Assembly (NCBI GenBank): GCA_042216675.1
Contig: JBDGTS010000044.1
Span: forward strand, 1-16,418
From: Halobacteriaceae archaeon
Lineage (GTDB): Archaea > Halobacteriota > Halobacteria > Halobacteriales > Halobacteriaceae
Direction of reading: 5' to 3'
Length of the DNA stretch: 16,418 nt
Below, piece by piece: positions 1 through 16,418 of this stretch. The notes below the pieces were generated by a model, which was not told the origin of the DNA, did not search any database, and saw only the letters and a program-made list of their open reading frames with translations. Within the stretch, counting starts at the first letter, position 1, and every line of letters begins with the position of its first letter. A program made the translations under genes and the position numbers.

Positions 1-118
1 TCACGACCGGCGGGCCTGCGCTCGCTTCGCTCACGCAGACTCCGTCCGGACGTTCTTTCGTTTCCCTGTCACGTCCGACGAGCCCACGGCTCGCGCCGTG
101 GACTCCGTCCGGACGTTC
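1..118. repeat. Two tandem REP-like palindromic units (about 50-55 nt each), possibly continuing left of the window
   Basis: GACTCCGTCCGGACGTTC is identical at 38-55 and 101-118. The left arms TCACGACCGGCGGGCC (1-16) and TCACGTCCGACGAGCC (69-84) are related. Each unit has a central hairpin (CTGCG 16-20/CGCAG 34-38; CCACGGC 84-90/GCCGTGG 95-101). ACGTCCG 71-77 pairs with CGGACGT 110-116. Confidence 0.8.
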
Positions 119-11237: not shown

Positions 11238-11537
11238 ATGAACGACTCGCGAGAAGGTGGCGTCGAGTTCGGCGACGTTCGGAATCAGTTGCGAGACCTG
11301 TCGTATCCGCTCACCGGCGCCGACGTCATCGCGGCGTGTGGCGACGGGACGATGGACCTCGCCGACGGCACGCGGACGGTGAGCGAGGCCCTCAAACCGT
11401 GCCGCGACCACACCTTCGAGTCGCCCGCCGACGTGGAGGCGACGCTGTTCTCGATGGTCCCCGTCGGCGCCGTCGGGCGAAAACACTACACCGACCGGGG
11501 CTGTCTCAGCACGTTCAGAGCAGTCGGGTCGCTTTAG
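11238..11537 (+). CDS. Haloarchaeal DUF5789-like small protein
   Basis: SREGGVEFG..LSYP..TFESPADV..AVGRKHYTDRG resembles this family. Overlaps the convergent ABC gene by 4 nt. Confidence 0.7.
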   Translation: MNDSREGGVEFGDVRNQLRDLSYPLTGADVIAACGDGTMDLADGTRTVSEALKPCRDHTFESPADVEATLFSMVPVGAVGRKHYTDRGCLSTFRAVGSL

Positions 11538-13480
11538 TCGTCGCCGATTTCCGCCTCGTACTCGTCCTCGTCCACGTCGGCCTCGGCTTGTCGCTCCTGT
11601 GCGCGTTGGACGAACTCCTCGGGCAGTTCCTCGATTTCACCGGCCTGCACGCCCCAGAGGTGCGCGTAGAGGCCGTCCTCGTCGATGAGTTCCTCGTGGG
11701 TGCCCCGCTCGACTACCTGCCCGTCTTCGAGGACGACGATCTGGTCGGCGTCCTTGATCGTCGAGAGGCGGTGGGCGATGGAGAGGGTGGTCTTGTCGGC
11801 GCTCAGCCGGTCCAGCGAGCGCTGGATGAGCATCTCCGTCTCCGTGTCCACGTCGGACGTGGCCTCGTCGAGGATGAGGATTTCGGGGTCCTTGAGGATG
11901 GCCCGCGCGATGGAGATGCGCTGGCGCTGGCCGCCGGAGAGTTTCACGCCGCGCTCCCCGACCATCGTGTCGTAGCCCTCGGGGAGGTTCATGATGAACT
12001 CGTGGGCCTCCGCGGCCTTCGCGGCCTCCCGAATTTCCGCCTCGCTCGCGTCGAACGTGCCGTACTCGATGTTCTCCTTCACCGTGCCGTAGAACAGGAA
12101 CGTCTCCTGTGACACGTAGCCGATGGCTTCGCGGAGACTCGGAATGGTCACGTCGGTCAGGTCCTGCCCGTCGATGCGGATGTGGCCCTCGTCCACGTCG
12201 TACATCCGCAAGAGGAGTTTGAGCACCGTCGACTTCCCGGCTCCCGTCGGGCCGACGAGCGCGAGGGTGTCGCCGCCGGGCACCTCGAAGGAGATGTCCT
12301 CGACGATTGGCTCCTCGTCGTAACCGAAGGTCACGTCGTCGTACTCGACGCGGCCGTCCTCGACGACGAGGTCCTCGGCGGCGGGGTCCTCCTCGATGCG
12401 CGTGGGTTCGTCCATCAGGCCGAAGATGCGCGCCGCGGAGGCCCGCGCCCGCTGGTACATGTTGATGATCATCCCGAACTGGGCCATCGGCCAGATGAAC
12501 CGCTGAGTGTAAAGGATGAACGTGACGAACTCGCCGACGCGGAGGGTGCCGGTGAAGGGGCCCGGCCCCTCGCCGTTGAACACCCAGAGGCCGCCGACGA
12601 TGAACGTCGTCAGGAAGCCGATGCCGGCGATGATGCGGAGCGCCGGGAAAAAGCGGATGCGGAGCGTGATGGCCCCCCAGTTCGCGTCGAAGTACCCCTC
12701 CGAGACGTCCTCGACTCTGTCGTCCTCGAAGTCCTCGGTGTTGGACGTCTTGATGACCTGAATCCCGCCGAGGTTGTTCTCCAAACGGGAGTTCATGTCA
12801 CCGACGCTCTCGCGGACGTCCTGATACTTCGGCTGGATGGCCTCGATGAAGCGCCACGTGAACAGGGCGATGAGCGGCACCGGCAGGAGAGCGACGAGGG
12901 CCAACTGCCAGTTCATCCAGAACAGGATGGCCGCGATGCCGATCACCATCATCGACAGGCGGAACACGGAGTTCAGGCCCCCGTTGAGGAACCGTTCGAG
13001 GCGGTTCACGTCGTTCGAGAGGATGGACATCAGTTCCCCGGTCTGCTTGTCCGAGAAGAACTCCATGTTCAGGCGCTGCATCTGCTCGTAGGTGTCCACC
13101 CGAATCGAGTGCTGGATGTTCTGCGAGAAGGAGTTCCAGCCCCAGTTGCGGCCCCAGTGGAACATCGCACCGCCGAAGAAGGAGACGGCGATGAGGCCGA
13201 TGGTCAGCCAGAACTGCCCCTCGCGCGTCGCGGGAACCCACGCGTGGGGCAGCAACGGGAGACTGTACGCGGCGTCGGTCCGGAACACTGCGTCCACGGC
13301 GACGCCGAGGAGGAGGGGCGGCAACAGGTCGAGGCCGCGGGCGAACATGCTCCCCGCGAGTCCGACCGCGAACTGGCGCCAGTTCTCGCGGCCGTACGTG
13401 GCGAACAGGCGCCGCATCGGGTTGTCGACCTGTTCCCGTTGTTCCTCGAACGGGTCGTCTTCGTCTTCGGGAACAGCCAT
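11534..13480 (-). CDS. ABC exporter, fused permease + ATPase (MsbA/MdlB-like)
   Basis: Six-TM N-terminal domain, Walker A GPTGAGKS, Q-loop VSQE, signature LSGGQ, Walker B ILILDEATS and H-loop AHRLS. Start taken at MAVPEDEDD (13480). Confidence 0.95.
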   Translation of the reverse strand: MAVPEDEDDPFEEQREQVDNPMRRLFATYGRENWRQFAVGLAGSMFARGLDLLPPLLLGVAVDAVFRTDAAYSLPLLPHAWVPATREGQFWLTIGLIAVSFFGGAMFHWGRNWGWNSFSQNIQHSIRVDTYEQMQRLNMEFFSDKQTGELMSILSNDVNRLERFLNGGLNSVFRLSMMVIGIAAILFWMNWQLALVALLPVPLIALFTWRFIEAIQPKYQDVRESVGDMNSRLENNLGGIQVIKTSNTEDFEDDRVEDVSEGYFDANWGAITLRIRFFPALRIIAGIGFLTTFIVGGLWVFNGEGPGPFTGTLRVGEFVTFILYTQRFIWPMAQFGMIINMYQRARASAARIFGLMDEPTRIEEDPAAEDLVVEDGRVEYDDVTFGYDEEPIVEDISFEVPGGDTLALVGPTGAGKSTVLKLLLRMYDVDEGHIRIDGQDLTDVTIPSLREAIGYVSQETFLFYGTVKENIEYGTFDASEAEIREAAKAAEAHEFIMNLPEGYDTMVGERGVKLSGGQRQRISIARAILKDPEILILDEATSDVDTETEMLIQRSLDRLSADKTTLSIAHRLSTIKDADQIVVLEDGQVVERGTHEELIDEDGLYAHLWGVQAGEIEELPEEFVQRAQERQAEADVDEDEYEAEIGDD

Positions 13481-13531
13481 TAACAACAGTGTCAGTCGAC
13501 CGCTACGCAAAAGCGTTGCTCTACCGGACAG

Positions 13532-14038
13532 TTAGCCGGTGTAGTTGATTGCGACGCGGTCCCCCACGGTGACGCCGTTGCGGTCGGTCCAGCCCCGGTT
13601 CACTTCGAGCACCCACTTCGCGGTGCCCCGATAGCGTGTGAGGTTCGCCTCGTCGGTTCCGGGTGGCGGCAGGGGCGCCTCGTGGATGGCCGTAATCGTG
13701 TGATTGGCGCCGACGAAGACGATGTCGAGGGGGAAGTCCATGTCCCGCATCACGTAGGCCTGTTCGCCCGCCCGGACGTGGACGAACAGCATGCCGGTGT
13801 TCTTCGGGAGCGAGTCGGTGTCGCTGAGTCCGGTGATCCGTTCGCTCCGCGTGTCCGCGATTCTCGTGTCGACGACTCCGAGTTCGGTGCCGTTCTCGCC
13901 GACGACGGTCACGGTTGCGGAGCCGTACGCGTCCCCGGTGTGCAGGAGCGTCGCCGGGACGTAGGCGGACGCCACGAGCGCCACCGCGAGAAGCGCCGCG
14001 AGGCCGGCGACGGCCGCGCCGAGGTGTCGGGCCTCCAT
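13532..14038 (-). CDS. DUF192 family membrane-anchored/secreted protein
   Basis: N-terminal TM, then IADTRSERITGL, GMLFV, MRDMDFPLDIVFV, WVLEVNRG and GVTVGDRV. Confidence 0.9.
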   Translation of the reverse strand: MEARHLGAAVAGLAALLAVALVASAYVPATLLHTGDAYGSATVTVVGENGTELGVVDTRIADTRSERITGLSDTDSLPKNTGMLFVHVRAGEQAYVMRDMDFPLDIVFVGANHTITAIHEAPLPPPGTDEANLTRYRGTAKWVLEVNRGWTDRNGVTVGDRVAINYTG

Positions 14039-14086
14039 CGCCGGAACGTGGGCACGACGCGGCCTAAGCGTTGCGGGGCGAGAGGG

Positions 14087-14098
14087 CAAACGTTTAGG
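14087..14098 (+). promoter_or_regulatory. Putative BRE/TATA of tRNA-Val
   Basis: CAAACG-TTTAGG about 25-35 nt upstream of the mature tRNA 5' end. Confidence 0.5.
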
Positions 14099-14122
14099 GC
14101 GCGCACGGGTAGTCTCGGGTAC

Positions 14123-14196
14123 GGGTTCGTGGTCTAGTTGGTCATGACGCGGCCTTTACAAGGCCGAGATCGGTGGTTCAACTCCGCCCGAACCCA
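14123..14196 (+). tRNA. tRNA-Val (anticodon TAC), intronless, CCA not encoded
   Basis: Acceptor GGGTTCG/CGAACCC plus discriminator A. D arm GTC..GAC. Anticodon arm CGGCC-TTTACAA-GGCCG (TAC at 14157-14159). T arm GGTGG-TTCAACT-CCGCC. Confidence 0.97.
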
Positions 14197-14425
14197 CTCT
14201 TCTTCCGTCGAGGCGTTGCATCGCCGAGACGCTCGTGTGGGGAGCGCGGAGTTGAAGCAGGGAGTGGAGCCTTGCGGAACGACCGTGGTTCAACTCCGCC
14301 CGAACCCACTGCATTTTGCTGCGAGCAAACCGCGAGCGGCAAATCCGTGTGTGAGGACGGATTGAACCGGACGGCGGCGAGCGGATGCAAGCCGACGGCG
14401 TTGTTCAACTCCGCCCGAACCCACT
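14173..14425 (+). repeat. tRNA-3'-end direct repeat array (3 x 26 nt)
   Basis: GTGGTTCAACTCCGCCCGAACCCACT at 14173-14198 (in the tRNA), 14285-14310 (identical) and 14400-14425 (1 mismatch). Spacers are 86 and 89 nt. Confidence 0.95.
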
Positions 14426-14471
14426 CGCATTCTGCGACGAACGGGAGCAACGTGGGTCGACTCCTCACGGT

Positions 14472-15257
14472 TCAGACGTCCCGCCGGACGAACCACGCCT
14501 GACTGGCGAGAACGAGGACAGCCGTCATCCCGAGGAGGACGGCCGCGTCGGCGAGGTCGTAGGTGCCTTCGAGGAGGACGTCGTTCGGGTCGAAGTACCG
14601 CATCGGCGCGACCGCGCCCAGCACCGCGTAGTCCGTGCCGCTCAGGAGCGACTCGACGAGATAGCTGCCGAACGTGACCCCGAGCGCGACGCGTTGGGCG
14701 ATGCTCGCGCGGTCGAAGAGAACCGACGCGAGGAGCCCGATTGCCCCACAGGCAAACAGGTACGGAATCGACAGCAGATGGAGCGCGACGAGGTCGGCGA
14801 CGGACAGCGACTCCCCGATGAGGGTGGCGCTGGCGAGGACGGCGACGGGCGTGACGGCGTTCACCACCAGAATCGGGACGCCGAGCGCGACGAACCGTTC
14901 GGCGGCGAGTCGCGGCCGCGACACCGGCATCGACAGGATGGTGTCCATCCGCCCGCGGTCGACGTCGTCGGCGATGATGCTCGCGGCGCTGTACGCGAGG
15001 TACAGCCCAAGCAGGATGACCCAGCCGAACATGTACAGTTCGACCGCCAGAAACCCTTCGAGCGAGGCCATCGTCTGAATGTTGAAGGCCCGAATCATCG
15101 GTTCGGGAAACGCCTCACGGAGTTGCGCCATGTCCATCGCTTGGCTGTAGGACGGGTACGCCCACACGGCGAACGCGGCCAGCAGCGACATTCCGACGGC
15201 GAGATACACGCTGCCCCTGACCCGCTTGGCGGCGTCGTACCGCGTGAACTCAAACAT
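14472..15257 (-). CDS. ABC-2 type transporter permease
   Basis: From MFEFTRYDAAKR: about 6 TM and the IIADDVDRGRMDTILSMPVSRPRL motif typical of ABC-2 permeases. Overlaps the ATPase stop by 8 nt. Confidence 0.9.
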   Translation of the reverse strand: MFEFTRYDAAKRVRGSVYLAVGMSLLAAFAVWAYPSYSQAMDMAQLREAFPEPMIRAFNIQTMASLEGFLAVELYMFGWVILLGLYLAYSAASIIADDVDRGRMDTILSMPVSRPRLAAERFVALGVPILVVNAVTPVAVLASATLIGESLSVADLVALHLLSIPYLFACGAIGLLASVLFDRASIAQRVALGVTFGSYLVESLLSGTDYAVLGAVAPMRYFDPNDVLLEGTYDLADAAVLLGMTAVLVLASQAWFVRRDV

Positions 15258-16170
15258 CCTCGTCACCGCCGTAGAACTGCAGGAAGACGTCTTCGAGCGG
15301 CGCTTCCTCGATGGACACGTCGACCATCTCGTAGTCGGGAAGCCGGCCGAGGAGTTCGTTGATGTCGCCGGTGAAGGTGAACGTGCACTCGGTGAATCGG
15401 TCCGAGTCGGCGTCTCCATCGCCCGAAACGCTGGTTTCGAGGTCGTGAACGCCGTCGAGAGCGACGAACTCGGTGGGAATCGGTTCGGCGCTGTCGATGC
15501 GGACGACTTTGCCACTCCGGCTCAGGAGCGTCTCGACCGGATCGACGGTGACCAGCCGACCGTCGCGGATGATGCCGACGCGGTCACAGAGCCGCCTGAC
15601 CTCGCTCAAGATGTGTGAGGAGAGGAACACGGTCACCCCCCGGTCACGCTCCGCTCGGAGGAACTCGGCGAACTGATGTTTCACGAGAGGGTCGAGACCG
15701 CTCGTCGGTTCGTCGAGGATGACGAGGTCCGGGTCGTGCATGAAGGTCGTCACCAGCCCCAACTTCTGGACGTTTCCCGTGGAGTAGTCCCGAACGCGCC
15801 GGTCGAGCGGGGGGTCGAACAGGTCGAGCAGCGCCGCCCGTCGCTCGTCGCCTTTCACCGCGGCGTGGAGGTCGAGGATCTGCGCGCCCGTCGCCTGTTC
15901 GTCGAAGGCCTGACTGTCGGAGAGGTGTCCGATGCGGCGTTTGGCCTCCACGAGCGCCGTTCGGTTCCGGACGTCGGTCCCGAGCACCCGCGCCGTTCCC
16001 GCGGTCGGCTTGATGAGGCCGAGGAGCATCCGAATCGTCGTCGTCTTCCCCGCGCCGTTCGGCCCGAGGTAGCCGAATATCTCGCCGGTGTCGACTGTGA
16101 ACGAGACGGCGTCGTTGGCGAGGACGGCCCCGTAATCCTTGGTCAAGCCGTCGAGTTCGACTGCGCCCAT
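15250..16170 (-). CDS. ABC-2 type transporter ATP-binding protein
   Basis: From MGAVELDGLTKDYG: Walker A GPNGAGKT, signature YSTGN, Walker B VILDEPTSGLDP, LSSHIL and C-terminal PLEDVFLQFY. Confidence 0.93.
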   Translation of the reverse strand: MGAVELDGLTKDYGAVLANDAVSFTVDTGEIFGYLGPNGAGKTTTIRMLLGLIKPTAGTARVLGTDVRNRTALVEAKRRIGHLSDSQAFDEQATGAQILDLHAAVKGDERRAALLDLFDPPLDRRVRDYSTGNVQKLGLVTTFMHDPDLVILDEPTSGLDPLVKHQFAEFLRAERDRGVTVFLSSHILSEVRRLCDRVGIIRDGRLVTVDPVETLLSRSGKVVRIDSAEPIPTEFVALDGVHDLETSVSGDGDADSDRFTECTFTFTGDINELLGRLPDYEMVDVSIEEAPLEDVFLQFYGGDEDV

Positions 16171-16418
16171 ACCTCGTTGTTCGCAGGCCCCCCTTTCGGT
16201 GTACCGGCGTCGGGACCGATTCGGCGACGCGGCGTGACTGAGCGACGCCGGTCCCACAAAGCGTATGGCCGGCTCTCGTGATTGATGGGGAAACGTGACC
16301 AAAATACGACCCCGGGCGCTCCGGGTCGGCCACGAGCGTGAGCCGGAAACCATCGCCGCCGACCCCCGCTTCGAGTGGCGCCTCGACGCGGACAGCCGCG
16401 GCGCGGCACAGAGCGCGT

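What the first reader, a model, noticed from the sequence alone, without database searches (positions are those of the whole stretch)
14173..14460. Repeat-spacer array built from the tRNA-Val 3' end
Seen: a 26-nt repeat (most of the T arm, the acceptor 3' strand, the discriminator and CT) occurs three times at 112/115-nt periods. The repeats are nearly perfect (0 and 1 mismatch), while the 86- and 89-nt spacers differ in sequence. A third, truncated spacer follows copy 3 (14426-14457). Known: tyrosine integrases duplicate tRNA 3' ends as att sites, and tRNA-linked repeats exist in bacteria (e.g. E. coli tyrT). Inference: the spacers are far too small to encode an integrase and are not degenerate copies of the tRNA 5' part. 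This looks like serial acquisition of about 110-nt non-autonomous cassettes at a tRNA att core, or an array processed by tRNA-maturation nucleases into small RNAs. It is a candidate undescribed tRNA-anchored cassette system.
Basis: partly seen in the sequence, partly recalled or inferred. Interest (0 to 1): 0.78.

Follow-up and report, generated by a model that had tools for sequence, protein, structure and literature searches.

The report
Hairpin mini-elements stacked behind tRNA-Val
Behind a haloarchaeal tRNA-Val gene sit two and a half small hairpin-rich DNA units, each ending in an exact copy of the tRNA's tail, and related units follow other tRNA genes in other salt-loving archaea, which suggests a family of tiny tRNA-targeting mobile elements for which I found no published description.

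Summary
tRNA-Val(TAC) lies at 14123-14197, and its last 26 nt recur at 14285 and 14400 (0 and 1 mismatch; 0 of 200 shuffles give 3 matches).

The "spacers" are not arbitrary. Each is built as a hairpin (H1), a degenerate inverted copy of the tRNA 3' end ("anticore"), a second hairpin, and then the exact direct copy.

The same architecture follows other tRNA genes:
- tRNA-Val(TAC) in three other haloarchaeal genomes
- tRNA-Val(GAC)
- tRNA-Val(CAC) on a Natronorubrum plasmid
- tRNA-Lys(CTT)

In these units the direct copy matches the host tRNA, and in 6 of 7 the inverted copy matches it best. A 69-nt version interrupts a tRNA-Cys gene at the T-stem/T-loop junction.

The window's three spacers are unrelated to each other (z 1.5). 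Each has significant relatives in other genomes (z 7.3, 8.8, 9.6). tRNA-Val loci sharing the upstream genes carry 0, 1 or 2+ units. No integrase, transposase or cas gene lies nearby.

Best reading (0.45): these are stacked insertions of miniature, non-autonomous, tRNA T-loop-targeting hairpin elements mobilised in trans. Main rival (0.2): a co-transcribed structured trailer RNA.

Eight literature searches found no description. Verdict: new variant of a known kind, interest about 0.7.

The parts
14123..14197 (+). tRNA-Val(TAC) gene, the anchor of the array
   Evidence: ARAGORN; Rfam RF00005, 65.3 bits
14173..14198 (+). Core copy 1: the tRNA's own T-arm 3' part, acceptor 3' strand, discriminator and CT
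14206..14231 (+). Unit 1 hairpin H1: stem, GA, inner stem-loop, GA, stem
   Evidence: RNA fold; GA-hairpin scan
14235..14258 (+). Unit 1 anticore: degenerate inverted copy of the core (an 11-nt exact complement of the T-loop and T-stem, plus GTGGG)
   Evidence: inverted repeat I2; score 11, p 0.006; alignment
14259..14284 (+). Unit 1 apical segment and pre-core; shares its flanking motifs with the units of L014 and of tRNA-Lys in L011
14285..14310 (+). Core copy 2 (26 of 26 identical)
14315..14343 (+). Unit 2 hairpin H1 (T4 run plus GA-type hairpin); homologous to the hairpin after the last full core in L004 and L005
   Evidence: z 8.8 and 6.2
14347..14368 (+). Unit 2 anticore (degenerate inverted copy of the core)
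   Evidence: score 9, p 0.056; alignment
14369..14399 (+). Unit 2 apical hairpin
   Evidence: fold
14400..14425 (+). Core copy 3 (25 of 26 identical)
14426..14471 (+). Truncated start of a third unit (H1-type loop without its 3' stem), cut off at the stop codon of the convergent gene
   Evidence: z 9.6 against L014 trailing sequence
13532..14089 (-). Upstream flank: DUF192 gene, syntenic with tRNA-Val(TAC) in related genomes
   Evidence: Pfam; tblastn
14472..15515 (-). [quoted passage not shown]
   Evidence: Pfam; tblastn

Best explanation
The array is a stack of two complete units (112 and 115 bp) and one truncated unit of a family of miniature, non-coding, non-autonomous insertion elements. 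These elements home to the T-stem/T-loop boundary of particular tRNA genes in Halobacteria.

Each unit consists of:
- a short pyrimidine tract and a hairpin (H1)
- an imperfect inverted copy of the tRNA's T-loop-to-3'-end segment (the anticore)
- a second hairpin
- an exact direct copy of the T-loop-to-discriminator segment (the core)

Insertion therefore leaves an intact tRNA gene followed by unit plus core, and further insertions at any core build a repeat-spacer-like array.

Shown: the architecture, its recurrence at five tRNA species in several genera, the match of core and anticore to the host tRNA, the compensatory changes in H1, and the presence/absence and copy-number differences among tRNA-Val loci sharing the upstream genes.

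Inferred: mobility itself, and the enzyme. I think the most likely route is site-specific recombination at the shared core by a trans-acting recombinase; tyrosine integrases with T-loop or 3'-end att sites are known in haloarchaea. The anticore::core hairpin may present the site in folded single-stranded form, as in integron attC or CTX phage attP, or as the hairpin ends of IS200/IS605-derived PATEs do.
For: (1) Architecture is shared.
- Seven full units were aligned: window x2, L004, L008, L014, L016, and L011 tRNA-Lys. All have H1, anticore, apical hairpin and core in the same order.
- An nhmmer profile of them finds only these units plus partial copies in 114.5 kb of held DNA.

(2) The core is an exact copy of the host tRNA's tail.
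- Exact copies by locus: 26 and 23 nt (window), 24 nt (L014, Val-GAC), 23 nt (L011, Lys-CTT), 18 nt (L005), 16 nt (L008).
- In L016 (Val-CAC) the copy differs at 1 of 21 positions, as I read it.

(3) The anticore matches the host tRNA.
- The spacer's best match among four tRNA 3' segments is its own tRNA's reverse complement in 6 of 8 spacers.
- L016 scores 9 against its own segment (p 0.028) but 10 against another.
- For tRNA-Lys the match is a perfect 15-mer (z 7.9). The miss is the 69-nt L018 insert, whose 8-nt anticore was seen only in the fold.
- Column pair 77/141 switches from G-C to U-A with tRNA identity.

(4) The window's units are of different subfamilies.
- S1 against S2 gives z 1.5.
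- S1 against L014 gives 7.3, against L004 5.8, and against the Lys unit 4.6.
- S2 against L005 gives 8.8, and S3 against L014 trailing sequence gives 9.6.
- This is expected for separate insertions and not for local duplication.

(5) Units are present in some tRNA-Val loci and absent in others.
- Loci that share upstream genes with the window (ABCB in L002, L008, L010, L011 and L013; DUF192 in L004, L008, L011 and L013) carry 2+ units (window), 1 (L004, L008) or 0 (L010, L011).
- In L008 the last core, and in L005 the last partial core, is followed by TCC, as is the unit-free tRNA in L010 and L011.
- Of 8 haloarchaeal loci with readable downstream DNA, 4 have a unit (L004, L005, L008, L014) and 4 do not (L009-L012).

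(6) A 69-nt unit-like insert (H1-like hairpin, short anticore, H2) splits a tRNA-Cys gene exactly between T-stem and T-loop in L018. Removing it gives a 74-nt cloverleaf.

(7) Hairpin H1 shows compensatory change.
- It has 14 pairs, 96.4% of cells paired, and 7 pairs changed on both sides.
- 0 of 500 shuffles reach this, and slid controls pair only 14-44%.
- GA/GA-type hairpins appear as 8 rows (6 distinct hairpins), all on the tRNA-sense strand of the units (unit DNA is my estimate of about 0.9 kb), out of 68 rows in 195 kb of strand scanned.

(8) The site is recombination-prone.
- Orphan cores occur without a tRNA (L001, L007). The one in L007 begins exactly at the T-loop after AT-rich DNA.
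- L004 and L005 diverge inside the T-loop remnant of a third core.
- In 3 of 12 haloarchaeal loci the contig ends at or inside the repeat.
- Gene order downstream differs from L002 and L010 by an inversion.

(9) Haloarchaeal SNJ2-type integrases use the 3' ends of tRNA genes, tRNA-Val included, as att sites (PMC5861418, passages and supplement).
Against: - No integrase, transposase or Cas gene appears among 18 window ORFs or among 28 ORFs flanking the core in 10 related loci.
- No free, circular or plasmid- or virus-borne copy was found. There are no halovirus hits, and the only plasmid hits with unit-like architecture are L016 and the L018 insert.
- Double-stranded circles of 105-143 bp would be strongly strained.
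- The comparison set is small: 7 full units, and one genome per species. No strain-level polymorphism was seen, so true mobility is unproven.
- The conserved-loop, variable-stem pattern of H1 is what long-term structural selection gives, rather than a recent burst of copies.
- L018 has the insert without any core duplication, which a simple core-crossover model does not predict.
- The window's genome itself was not found in the collection (no locus has 3 cores), so its other tRNA genes could not be examined.
Confidence: 0.45

Rival explanations
1. The units are a functional, structured 3' trailer of the tRNA transcript. They would be co-transcribed from the tRNA promoter and folded into stable hairpins (H1, and a long hairpin made of the anticore and a tRNA-tail copy). 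They would act in tRNA 3'-end processing or termination, or as a small RNA. Arrays and spread to other tRNAs would come from occasional duplication and recombination.
For: - The units start directly after the discriminator with a pyrimidine tract and a hairpin.
- A T4 run follows the second core in the window, L004, L005 and L016.
- GA/GA tandem mismatches lie only on the tRNA-sense strand of the units.
- H1 has compensatory changes.
- Unit folds are more stable than shuffles: z -1.1 to -4.1 on the sense strand.
- E. coli has a precedent. The tyrT-tyrV operon is followed by 178-bp repeats that include 19 nt of the tRNA 3' end, and the small RNA RttR is annotated over part of them.
Against: - Distribution is patchy among tRNA-Val loci sharing the upstream genes: 0, 1 or 2+ units.
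- Units within one array belong to different subfamilies.
- Mismatches in the long hairpin show no G-U over A-C excess (2 against 3).
- Antisense folds are about as stable as sense folds.
- The H2 hairpin appears inverted in L014, as I read it. Its 22-nt loop also occurs in a non-tRNA block on 148 plasmids.
- In L018 the insert breaks a tRNA gene.
- Whole-transcript folding pairs the tRNA's own 3' half with the anticore, which would compete with the cloverleaf.
- No Rfam family matches the units.
Confidence: 0.2
2. The units are passive scars. Large integrative elements (proviruses, plasmids) repeatedly integrated at the tRNA 3' end and were lost by imprecise deletion. This left attL/attR core copies with short remnants of the elements' att arms, and the units have no mobility or function of their own.
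For: - The duplication spans T-loop to discriminator, the classical sublocation of integrase att sites (recalled from Williams 2002).
- Haloarchaeal integrases target tRNA 3' ends (PMC5861418).
- Partial tRNA genes from element integration are common in archaea (PMC9897764, passages).
- L007 and L004 show larger foreign or non-syntenic DNA joined at or in the T-loop of a core.
- As I read, L001 carries closely spaced degenerate core fragments without hairpin modules.
Against: - Independent deletions would not leave the same ordered architecture and similar size (105-143 bp) at five tRNA species.
- They would not leave an anticore that changes with the tRNA.
- They would not leave hairpins with compensatory changes.
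- The AT-rich arm next to the L007 orphan core has none of the unit's modules.
Confidence: 0.15
3. The array is a local tandem duplication of the tRNA tail plus downstream spacer by slippage or unequal crossing-over, as in the E. coli tyrT-tyrV 178-bp repeats, followed by divergence of the spacers.
For: The period is regular (112 and 115 nt) and both units share one architecture. The E. coli example was verified here: 3 copies at 178-nt spacing, 95% identical.
Against: - S1 and S2 are not significantly similar (z 1.04; z 1.5), whereas the cores are 100% and 96% identical.
- Each spacer is closer to units in other genera than to its neighbour.
- Tandem Repeats Finder finds nothing.
Confidence: 0.05
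4. The array is a CRISPR-like or neo-CRISPR array, with the tRNA tail acting as the repeat.
For: The layout is repeat-spacer. In L014 a true type I-B-like CRISPR array (10 repeats in the held part) starts 100 nt past the last full core. Four of 7 anticores end in TTGAAGC, which is also the end of that CRISPR repeat.
Against: - The spacers are 86-89 nt, share a fixed architecture and have homologues at other tRNA loci.
- The window has no cas gene.
- Similarity of the L014 CRISPR repeat to the units and to the tRNA is not significant: best z 2.3, p at least 0.056 in 10 spacers, both strands.
Confidence: 0.01

Closest known systems
attL/attR duplication of tRNA 3' ends by tyrosine integrases. 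This includes haloarchaeal SNJ2-type integrases (PMC5861418, passages and supplement read). It also includes tandem accretion of integrated elements and integrase-less cis-mobilizable elements (CIMEs). For CIMEs I saw only search listings and abstract starts: PMC5704250, PMC6323972, PMC3146451.
   Same: Direct repeats identical to the tRNA's 3' part, starting at the T-arm. The tRNA gene stays intact. Several copies can pile up at one tRNA. tRNA-Val is among the known haloarchaeal targets.
   Different: The DNA between repeats is only 86-123 nt, has no gene, holds an inverted copy of the att core, and has a conserved hairpin architecture. No integrase lies in 16 kb of the window. Known CIMEs and islands are, from recall, kilobases long.
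E. coli tyrT-tyrV tRNA-linked 178-bp repeats with the RttR small RNA (checked in NC_000913.3)
   Same: The last nucleotides of a tRNA gene recur at a fixed period downstream of the gene, in an array of about three units.
   Different: In E. coli the whole 178-bp unit is duplicated (95% identical). Here only the tRNA-derived 26 nt are conserved, the rest differs between neighbouring units, and each unit holds an inverted tRNA-tail copy.
Small non-coding mobile elements of haloarchaea: PATEs (IS200/IS605-derived, with near-terminal palindromes, down to 52 bp) and about 110-bp SMR-A repeats that insert into palindromes (PMC3119063, passages read; its supplementary tables could not be opened)
   Same: The size class is 50-150 bp, there is no coding capacity, hairpins lie near both ends, the target is a palindromic structure (here the T-arm), and no enzyme gene is on the element.
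   Different: No sequence relation could be tested. The units are tied to tRNA 3' ends, duplicate 16-26 nt of target, and contain a target-complementary segment. None of these is described for PATEs or SMRs in the passages read.
Recombination sites that work as folded single strands: integron attC sites and CTX phage attP(+) (recalled, not checked with tools)
   Same: An imperfect inverted repeat with bulges and a variable apical structure lies next to the crossover core. Arrays of short units each end in such a site.
   Different: No IntI or Xer-type gene was seen. The core is 20-26 nt of a tRNA and not a GTTRRRY box or a dif site. Integrons are, from recall, not known from Halobacteria.
CRISPR arrays
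   Same: Short direct repeats are separated by different sequences of similar length.
   Different: The repeat is a tRNA tail. The spacers are about 3 times too long, structured and homologous between genomes. No cas genes are present, and repeat similarity is not significant.

Membership tests
Integrase att-site duplication at a tRNA gene (integrated mobile element) | Direct repeat identical to the 3' part of the tRNA gene, one copy completing the gene | tested here: met
   26-nt copies at 14173, 14285 and 14400
Integrase att-site duplication at a tRNA gene (integrated mobile element) | An integrase gene and element cargo between or beside the repeats | tested here: not met
   The DNA between repeats is 86 and 89 nt. 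No recombinase domain in 18 window ORFs or in 28 ORFs of related loci.
Integrase att-site duplication at a tRNA gene (integrated mobile element) | Excision to a circle and re-integration | not testable with these tools
   This needs outward PCR or a capture assay in a carrier strain.
tRNA-linked tandem repeats of the E. coli tyrT type | The whole unit (tRNA tail plus spacer) is tandemly duplicated with high identity | tested here: not met
   S1 against S2 gives z 1.04 and 1.5. TRF finds no array. The E. coli units are 95% identical.
CRISPR array | Repeats of 23-50 nt with unique spacers of about 26-72 nt taken from foreign DNA | tested here: not met
   The spacers are 86 and 89 nt, share an architecture and have homologues behind other tRNAs.
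CRISPR array | cas genes or a leader nearby; repeat family related to known repeats | tested here: not met
   No Cas domain in the window. Similarity to the L014 type I-B-like repeat is not significant.
MITE / PATE / SMR-type miniature mobile element | Short non-coding unit with terminal inverted repeats or near-terminal palindromes | tested here: met
   Hairpin H1 lies 7-10 nt from the left junction (my reading). In the H2-bearing units a hairpin lies 4-9 nt from the core (my reading).
MITE / PATE / SMR-type miniature mobile element | Many dispersed copies in one genome, with presence/absence differences between strains | tested here: inconclusive
   Units were seen only behind tRNA genes: 7 full units in 6 genomes. 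Presence and absence were seen between species. No whole genome or strain pair was available.
Integron cassette array | intI gene, attI, and attC sites with R/L boxes (GTTRRRY core) | tested here: not met
   No integrase in the window. By reading, the core sequence does not fit GTTRRRY. The imperfect inverted repeat is the only shared trait.
Archaeal tRNA intron (bulge-helix-bulge) | Two 3-nt bulges separated by a 4-bp helix at the exon-intron junctions | tested here: inconclusive
   For the 69-nt insert in the L018 tRNA-Cys I found no BHB by inspecting the fold. No dedicated BHB search tool was available.

The most novel reading that the evidence does not exclude
The units are a new class of guide-bearing miniature mobile elements. 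In this reading a roughly 70-140-nt hairpin element travels as single-stranded DNA or RNA. Its internal antisense segment (the anticore) reads the T-loop and 3' end of a chosen tRNA gene, and it inserts at the T-stem/T-loop junction while supplying a replacement tRNA tail. Retargeting to another tRNA would happen by changing the anticore, as seen for Val-TAC, Val-GAC, Val-CAC, Lys-CTT and Cys-GCA. The widely conserved 22-nt hairpin shared with 148 haloarchaeal plasmids would be the handle for a still unknown host or plasmid enzyme.
Probability: 0.15. Interest if true: 0.9.

Novelty: new variant of a known kind. Interest (0 to 1): 0.7.

Why it matters
If the units are mobile, they would be the smallest known elements that home to tRNA genes. 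They would do so without carrying an enzyme, while keeping the tRNA intact and carrying a sequence complementary to their target.

That would give a directly testable case of how target specificity is stored in a non-coding element. It would also show how repeat-spacer-like arrays can arise without CRISPR machinery.

There are practical consequences too:
- These arrays create extra partial tRNA copies.
- They probably break metagenome assemblies at tRNA genes. In 3 of 12 haloarchaeal loci the contig ends at or inside the repeat.
- They mark recombination hot spots, since the downstream flanks are not syntenic.

If instead they are trailer RNAs, they would be a new structured RNA class tied to tRNA expression in Halobacteria.

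Tried and rejected
- Degenerate tRNA copy. The last 50 nt of spacer 1 plus the core equal a tRNA in length, but similarity to the tRNA 5' part is at chance (z 0.61), and the other units differ in length.
- CRISPR origin. The shared TTGAAGC and the adjacent CRISPR array in L014 looked suggestive, but repeat-to-unit and repeat-to-tRNA alignments are not significant.
- Intron reading. I found no bulge-helix-bulge motif for the 69-nt insert in the L018 tRNA-Cys, nor for a window "intron" running from core 1 to core 2. This was by inspection of the folds only.
- K-turn or box C/D reading of the GA hairpins. The internal loops are symmetric 2x2 or 3x2 and lack the 3-nt bulge geometry (by reading). 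Rfam gives no match.
- Source element in viruses or plasmids.
  - The window query found nothing in plasmids and only two Vibrio phage tRNA-like hits.
  - The L004 unit hit no halovirus.
  - The Lys unit and the L018 insert found only themselves or nothing in plasmids.
- Integrase search around related loci: none in 28 ORFs.
- G-U against A-C asymmetry in the long hairpin as a test for RNA-level selection: 2 against 3, uninformative.
- Literature. Eight searches found no description of tRNA-tail repeats with an inverted copy and hairpins in Halobacteria. The library lacks most subscription journals. The supplementary tables of PMC3119063 (PATE end sequences) could not be opened.
- Unchecked.
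Full report
**1.

The window (69% G+C) has a single tRNA gene. It is tRNA-Val(TAC) at 14123-14197, and Rfam's tRNA model scores 65.3 bits over it.

Its last 26 nt cover most of the T-arm, the acceptor 3' strand, the discriminator and CT. They recur at 14285-14310 (26 of 26) and at 14400-14425 (25 of 26), at spacings of 112 and 115 nt. With 3 mismatches allowed there are exactly these 3 matches. None of 200 shuffled windows had any.

The 86- and 89-nt spacers are not significantly similar to each other (z 1.04; z 1.5). They are not similar to the tRNA 5' part either, and Tandem Repeats Finder sees no array.

The array fills the gap between a DUF192 gene (13532-14089, minus strand) and the stop codon of an ABC-2 permease gene (14472, minus strand). 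None of 18 window ORFs has a recombinase, transposase or Cas domain.

**2. The spacers have a fixed anatomy**

Each unit reads, on the tRNA strand, as follows (coordinates):
- a pyrimidine tract
- a hairpin H1 of the form stem, GA, short stem-loop, GA, stem (14206-14231 and 14315-14343)
- a degenerate inverted copy of the repeat, the "anticore" (14235-14258 and 14347-14368)
- an apical segment that folds on itself
- the exact repeat, the "core"

The anticore matches the reverse complement of the tRNA tail better than shuffled spacers do. Unit 1 scores 11 (p 0.006) and unit 2 scores 9 (p 0.056).

The anticore can pair either with the following core or with the preceding one. In the fold of the whole array, each core pairs with the anticore that follows it, with H1 at the tip.

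**3. The same thing occurs elsewhere**

Twelve are haloarchaeal. None has three cores, so the window's own genome is not in that collection.

Among 8 haloarchaeal loci with readable downstream DNA, 4 carry a unit:
- L004, tRNA-Val(TAC), second core at 132 nt
- L005, a close relative of L004, whose contig starts inside a unit and which also has a 48-nt short unit
- L008, Halosimplex salinum, 133 nt, second core degenerate
- L014, a Salinarchaeum MAG, tRNA-Val(GAC), 126 nt

The other four (L009-L012) carry none.

By luck, L011 also holds a tRNA-Lys(CTT) gene. It is followed 105 nt downstream by an exact 23-nt copy of its own tail. Before that copy lies a perfect 15-nt complement of the tRNA's T-loop and T-stem, together with the same short motifs that flank the apical segment of window unit 1 and of L014.

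A plasmid search added two more cases:
- L016 (Natronorubrum bangense) has tRNA-Val(CAC) followed by a 143-nt unit with its own core and anticore.
- L018 (Haloarcula halophila) has a tRNA-Cys(GCA) gene split between T-stem and T-loop by a 69-nt insert. The insert holds a hairpin, a short anticore and the H2 hairpin, with no core duplication. Cutting the insert out in silico gives a 74-nt cloverleaf, and Rfam's tRNA model spans the whole 143 nt at 36.9 bits.

Seven full units align into one architecture. A profile built from them finds nothing else in the 114.5 kb held, apart from partial copies.

**4. What varies and what does not**

- Cores. They are exact or near-exact copies of the host tRNA's tail.
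- Anticores. In 6 of 8 spacers the anticore matches its own tRNA best among four candidates. L016 matches its own tRNA (p 0.028) but scores one point higher against another. The miss is the short L018 insert. One anticore-core column pair switches from G-C to U-A with tRNA identity.
- H1. In four genomes H1 keeps a 23-nt loop while its stem changes completely yet stays paired. It has 14 pairs, 96.4% of cells paired, and 7 pairs with changes on both sides. No shuffle of 500 reaches this, and slid controls pair 14-44%.
- GA/GA motif. In the units it lies only on the tRNA-sense strand, as 8 rows (6 distinct hairpins). The scan gave 68 rows in 195 kb of strand overall.
- H2 loop. This 22-mer is identical in L004 and L005 and differs at one base in L008.
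  - It is also 100% identical in at least 49 haloarchaeal plasmids.
  - On plasmids it belongs to a conserved non-coding block beside an OB-fold protein gene, at 148 plasmids and 223 places.
- Long-hairpin mismatches. They show no G-U over A-C bias (2 against 3), so they do not tell RNA from DNA.

**5. Evidence bearing on origin**

The window's three spacers belong to different subfamilies:
- S1 is closest to L014 (z 7.3), L004 (5.8) and the tRNA-Lys unit (4.6).
- S2 is closest to the hairpin after the last full core of L005 (8.8) and L004 (6.2).
- S3 is closest to the sequence after the last core of L014 (9.6).

This argues against local tandem duplication and for separate arrivals or inter-locus recombination.

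The upstream genes (DUF192, an ABCB transporter) are conserved next to tRNA-Val(TAC) in L004, L008, L011 and L013, and partly in L002 and L010. The downstream side differs everywhere. [quoted passage not shown]

In L008 the last core, and in L005 the last partial core, is followed by the same TCC start that follows the unit-free tRNA in L010 and L011. This is expected if units were inserted between tRNA and native flank.

Other signs of a recombination-prone site:
- L007 has an orphan core that starts exactly at the T-loop after AT-rich DNA.
- L004 and L005 diverge inside the T-loop remnant of a third core.
- Three contigs end at or inside the repeat.

No integrase or transposase was found in 28 ORFs flanking these loci.

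**6. Mechanism**

I commit to stacked insertions of a family of miniature non-autonomous elements that target the T-stem/T-loop boundary and carry, or regenerate, the tRNA tail (confidence 0.45).

The order core, H1, anticore, apical hairpin, core is what a single crossover in the core gives for a small circle. That circle's att site would be flanked on one side by anticore plus hairpin and on the other by H1. The anticore would let the site fold as a hairpin in single-stranded form.

Which enzyme acts is inference. Haloarchaeal SNJ2-type integrases do use tRNA 3' ends, tRNA-Val included (PMC5861418). Haloarchaea also carry 52-110-bp enzyme-less elements with near-terminal palindromes (PMC3119063).

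Against this reading:
- No enzyme gene lies nearby.
- No free copy was found in plasmid or virus collections.
- The sample is small.
- L018 lacks the duplication.

The rivals are:
- a co-transcribed structured trailer RNA (0.2)
- passive scars of large elements (0.15)
- local tandem duplication as in E. coli tyrT-tyrV, which I verified has 178-bp units that are 95% identical and is therefore unlike this case (0.05)
- a CRISPR-like array, rejected

**7. Novelty**

Eight full-text searches found no description of this architecture. The library misses most subscription journals, and one relevant supplement could not be opened.

I rate the finding a new variant of a known kind (tRNA-anchored att repeats, miniature mobile elements), with interest 0.7.

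The boldest reading still open is a guide-bearing, tRNA-retargetable mini-element (probability about 0.15).

Noticed in passing
window 1-118, minus strand (3' of the aldehyde dehydrogenase gene at 130-1566): A second repeat-hairpin array. A perfect 18-nt direct repeat lies at 38-55 and 101-118 (63-nt period). Each copy forms the 5' arm of a long imperfect hairpin with a different apical hairpin. One of these is a GA-type hairpin holding the GAGCGAAGCGAG motif, which recurs with small variations in the H1 and H2 loops. The 3' arms are degenerate. The logic matches the tRNA array, but no tRNA is involved. The array is cut by the window start.
   Followed up: partly
window 14049-14065 versus 14139-14155: A 17-nt stretch 90 nt upstream of its counterpart resembles the tRNA's D-arm and anticodon-stem region. 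It is 88% identical, and the local alignment gives z 5.6, p 0.003 before correction for 20 comparisons. It could be a relic of a tRNA 5' fragment or chance.
   Followed up: no
L018 (Haloarcula halophila plasmid NZ_CP119561.1), 54-2180: A dense array of 13 ARAGORN-predicted tRNA genes lies next to a TROVE (Ro-like) protein gene. A 14th gene, tRNA-Cys(GCA) at 1114-1256, is split at the T-stem/T-loop junction by a 69-nt unit-like insert flanked by a 4-nt direct repeat.
   Followed up: partly
L015 1490-1590 (Haloferax volcanii pHV4) and L017 (Halobacterium pNRC100): A non-coding block of about 100 nt holds the same 22-nt hairpin as H2, followed by a G-rich tract. It lies just past the 3' end of an OB-fold "DNA-binding protein" gene. 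It is found on 148 haloarchaeal plasmids at 223 places. No Rfam family matches it, and its function is unknown.
   Followed up: partly
L014 4-626: A type I-B-like CRISPR array has 10 identical 30-nt repeats in the held part. It is transcribed towards the tRNA-Val(GAC) locus and ends 100 nt from the last full core. Between the two lies a partial unit whose anticore fits a different tRNA T-arm and which lacks its core.
   Followed up: partly
window 11534-16353 compared with L002 and L010: Gene order differs by an inversion. In L002 and L010 the ABC-2 permease and ATPase genes lie beyond the ABCB gene, on the tRNA's upstream side. In the window they lie downstream of the array, and DUF192 is absent from L002 and L010.
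   Followed up: partly
L001 3997-4110: An orphan exact 26-nt core without a tRNA gene is followed within about 80 nt by two degenerate core-like fragments. It is preceded by a palindrome made of acceptor-stem-like sequence. All of this is by eye.
   Followed up: no
L003 and L006: The exact 20-nt core also occurs once each in contigs labelled Hyphomicrobiales and Elusimicrobiales MAGs, without a tRNA gene. This could be chance, mis-binning or transfer. It was not examined.
   Followed up: no
L016 1-94: A perfect 45-bp tandem repeat lies at the edge of the fetched Natronorubrum plasmid stretch.
   Followed up: no
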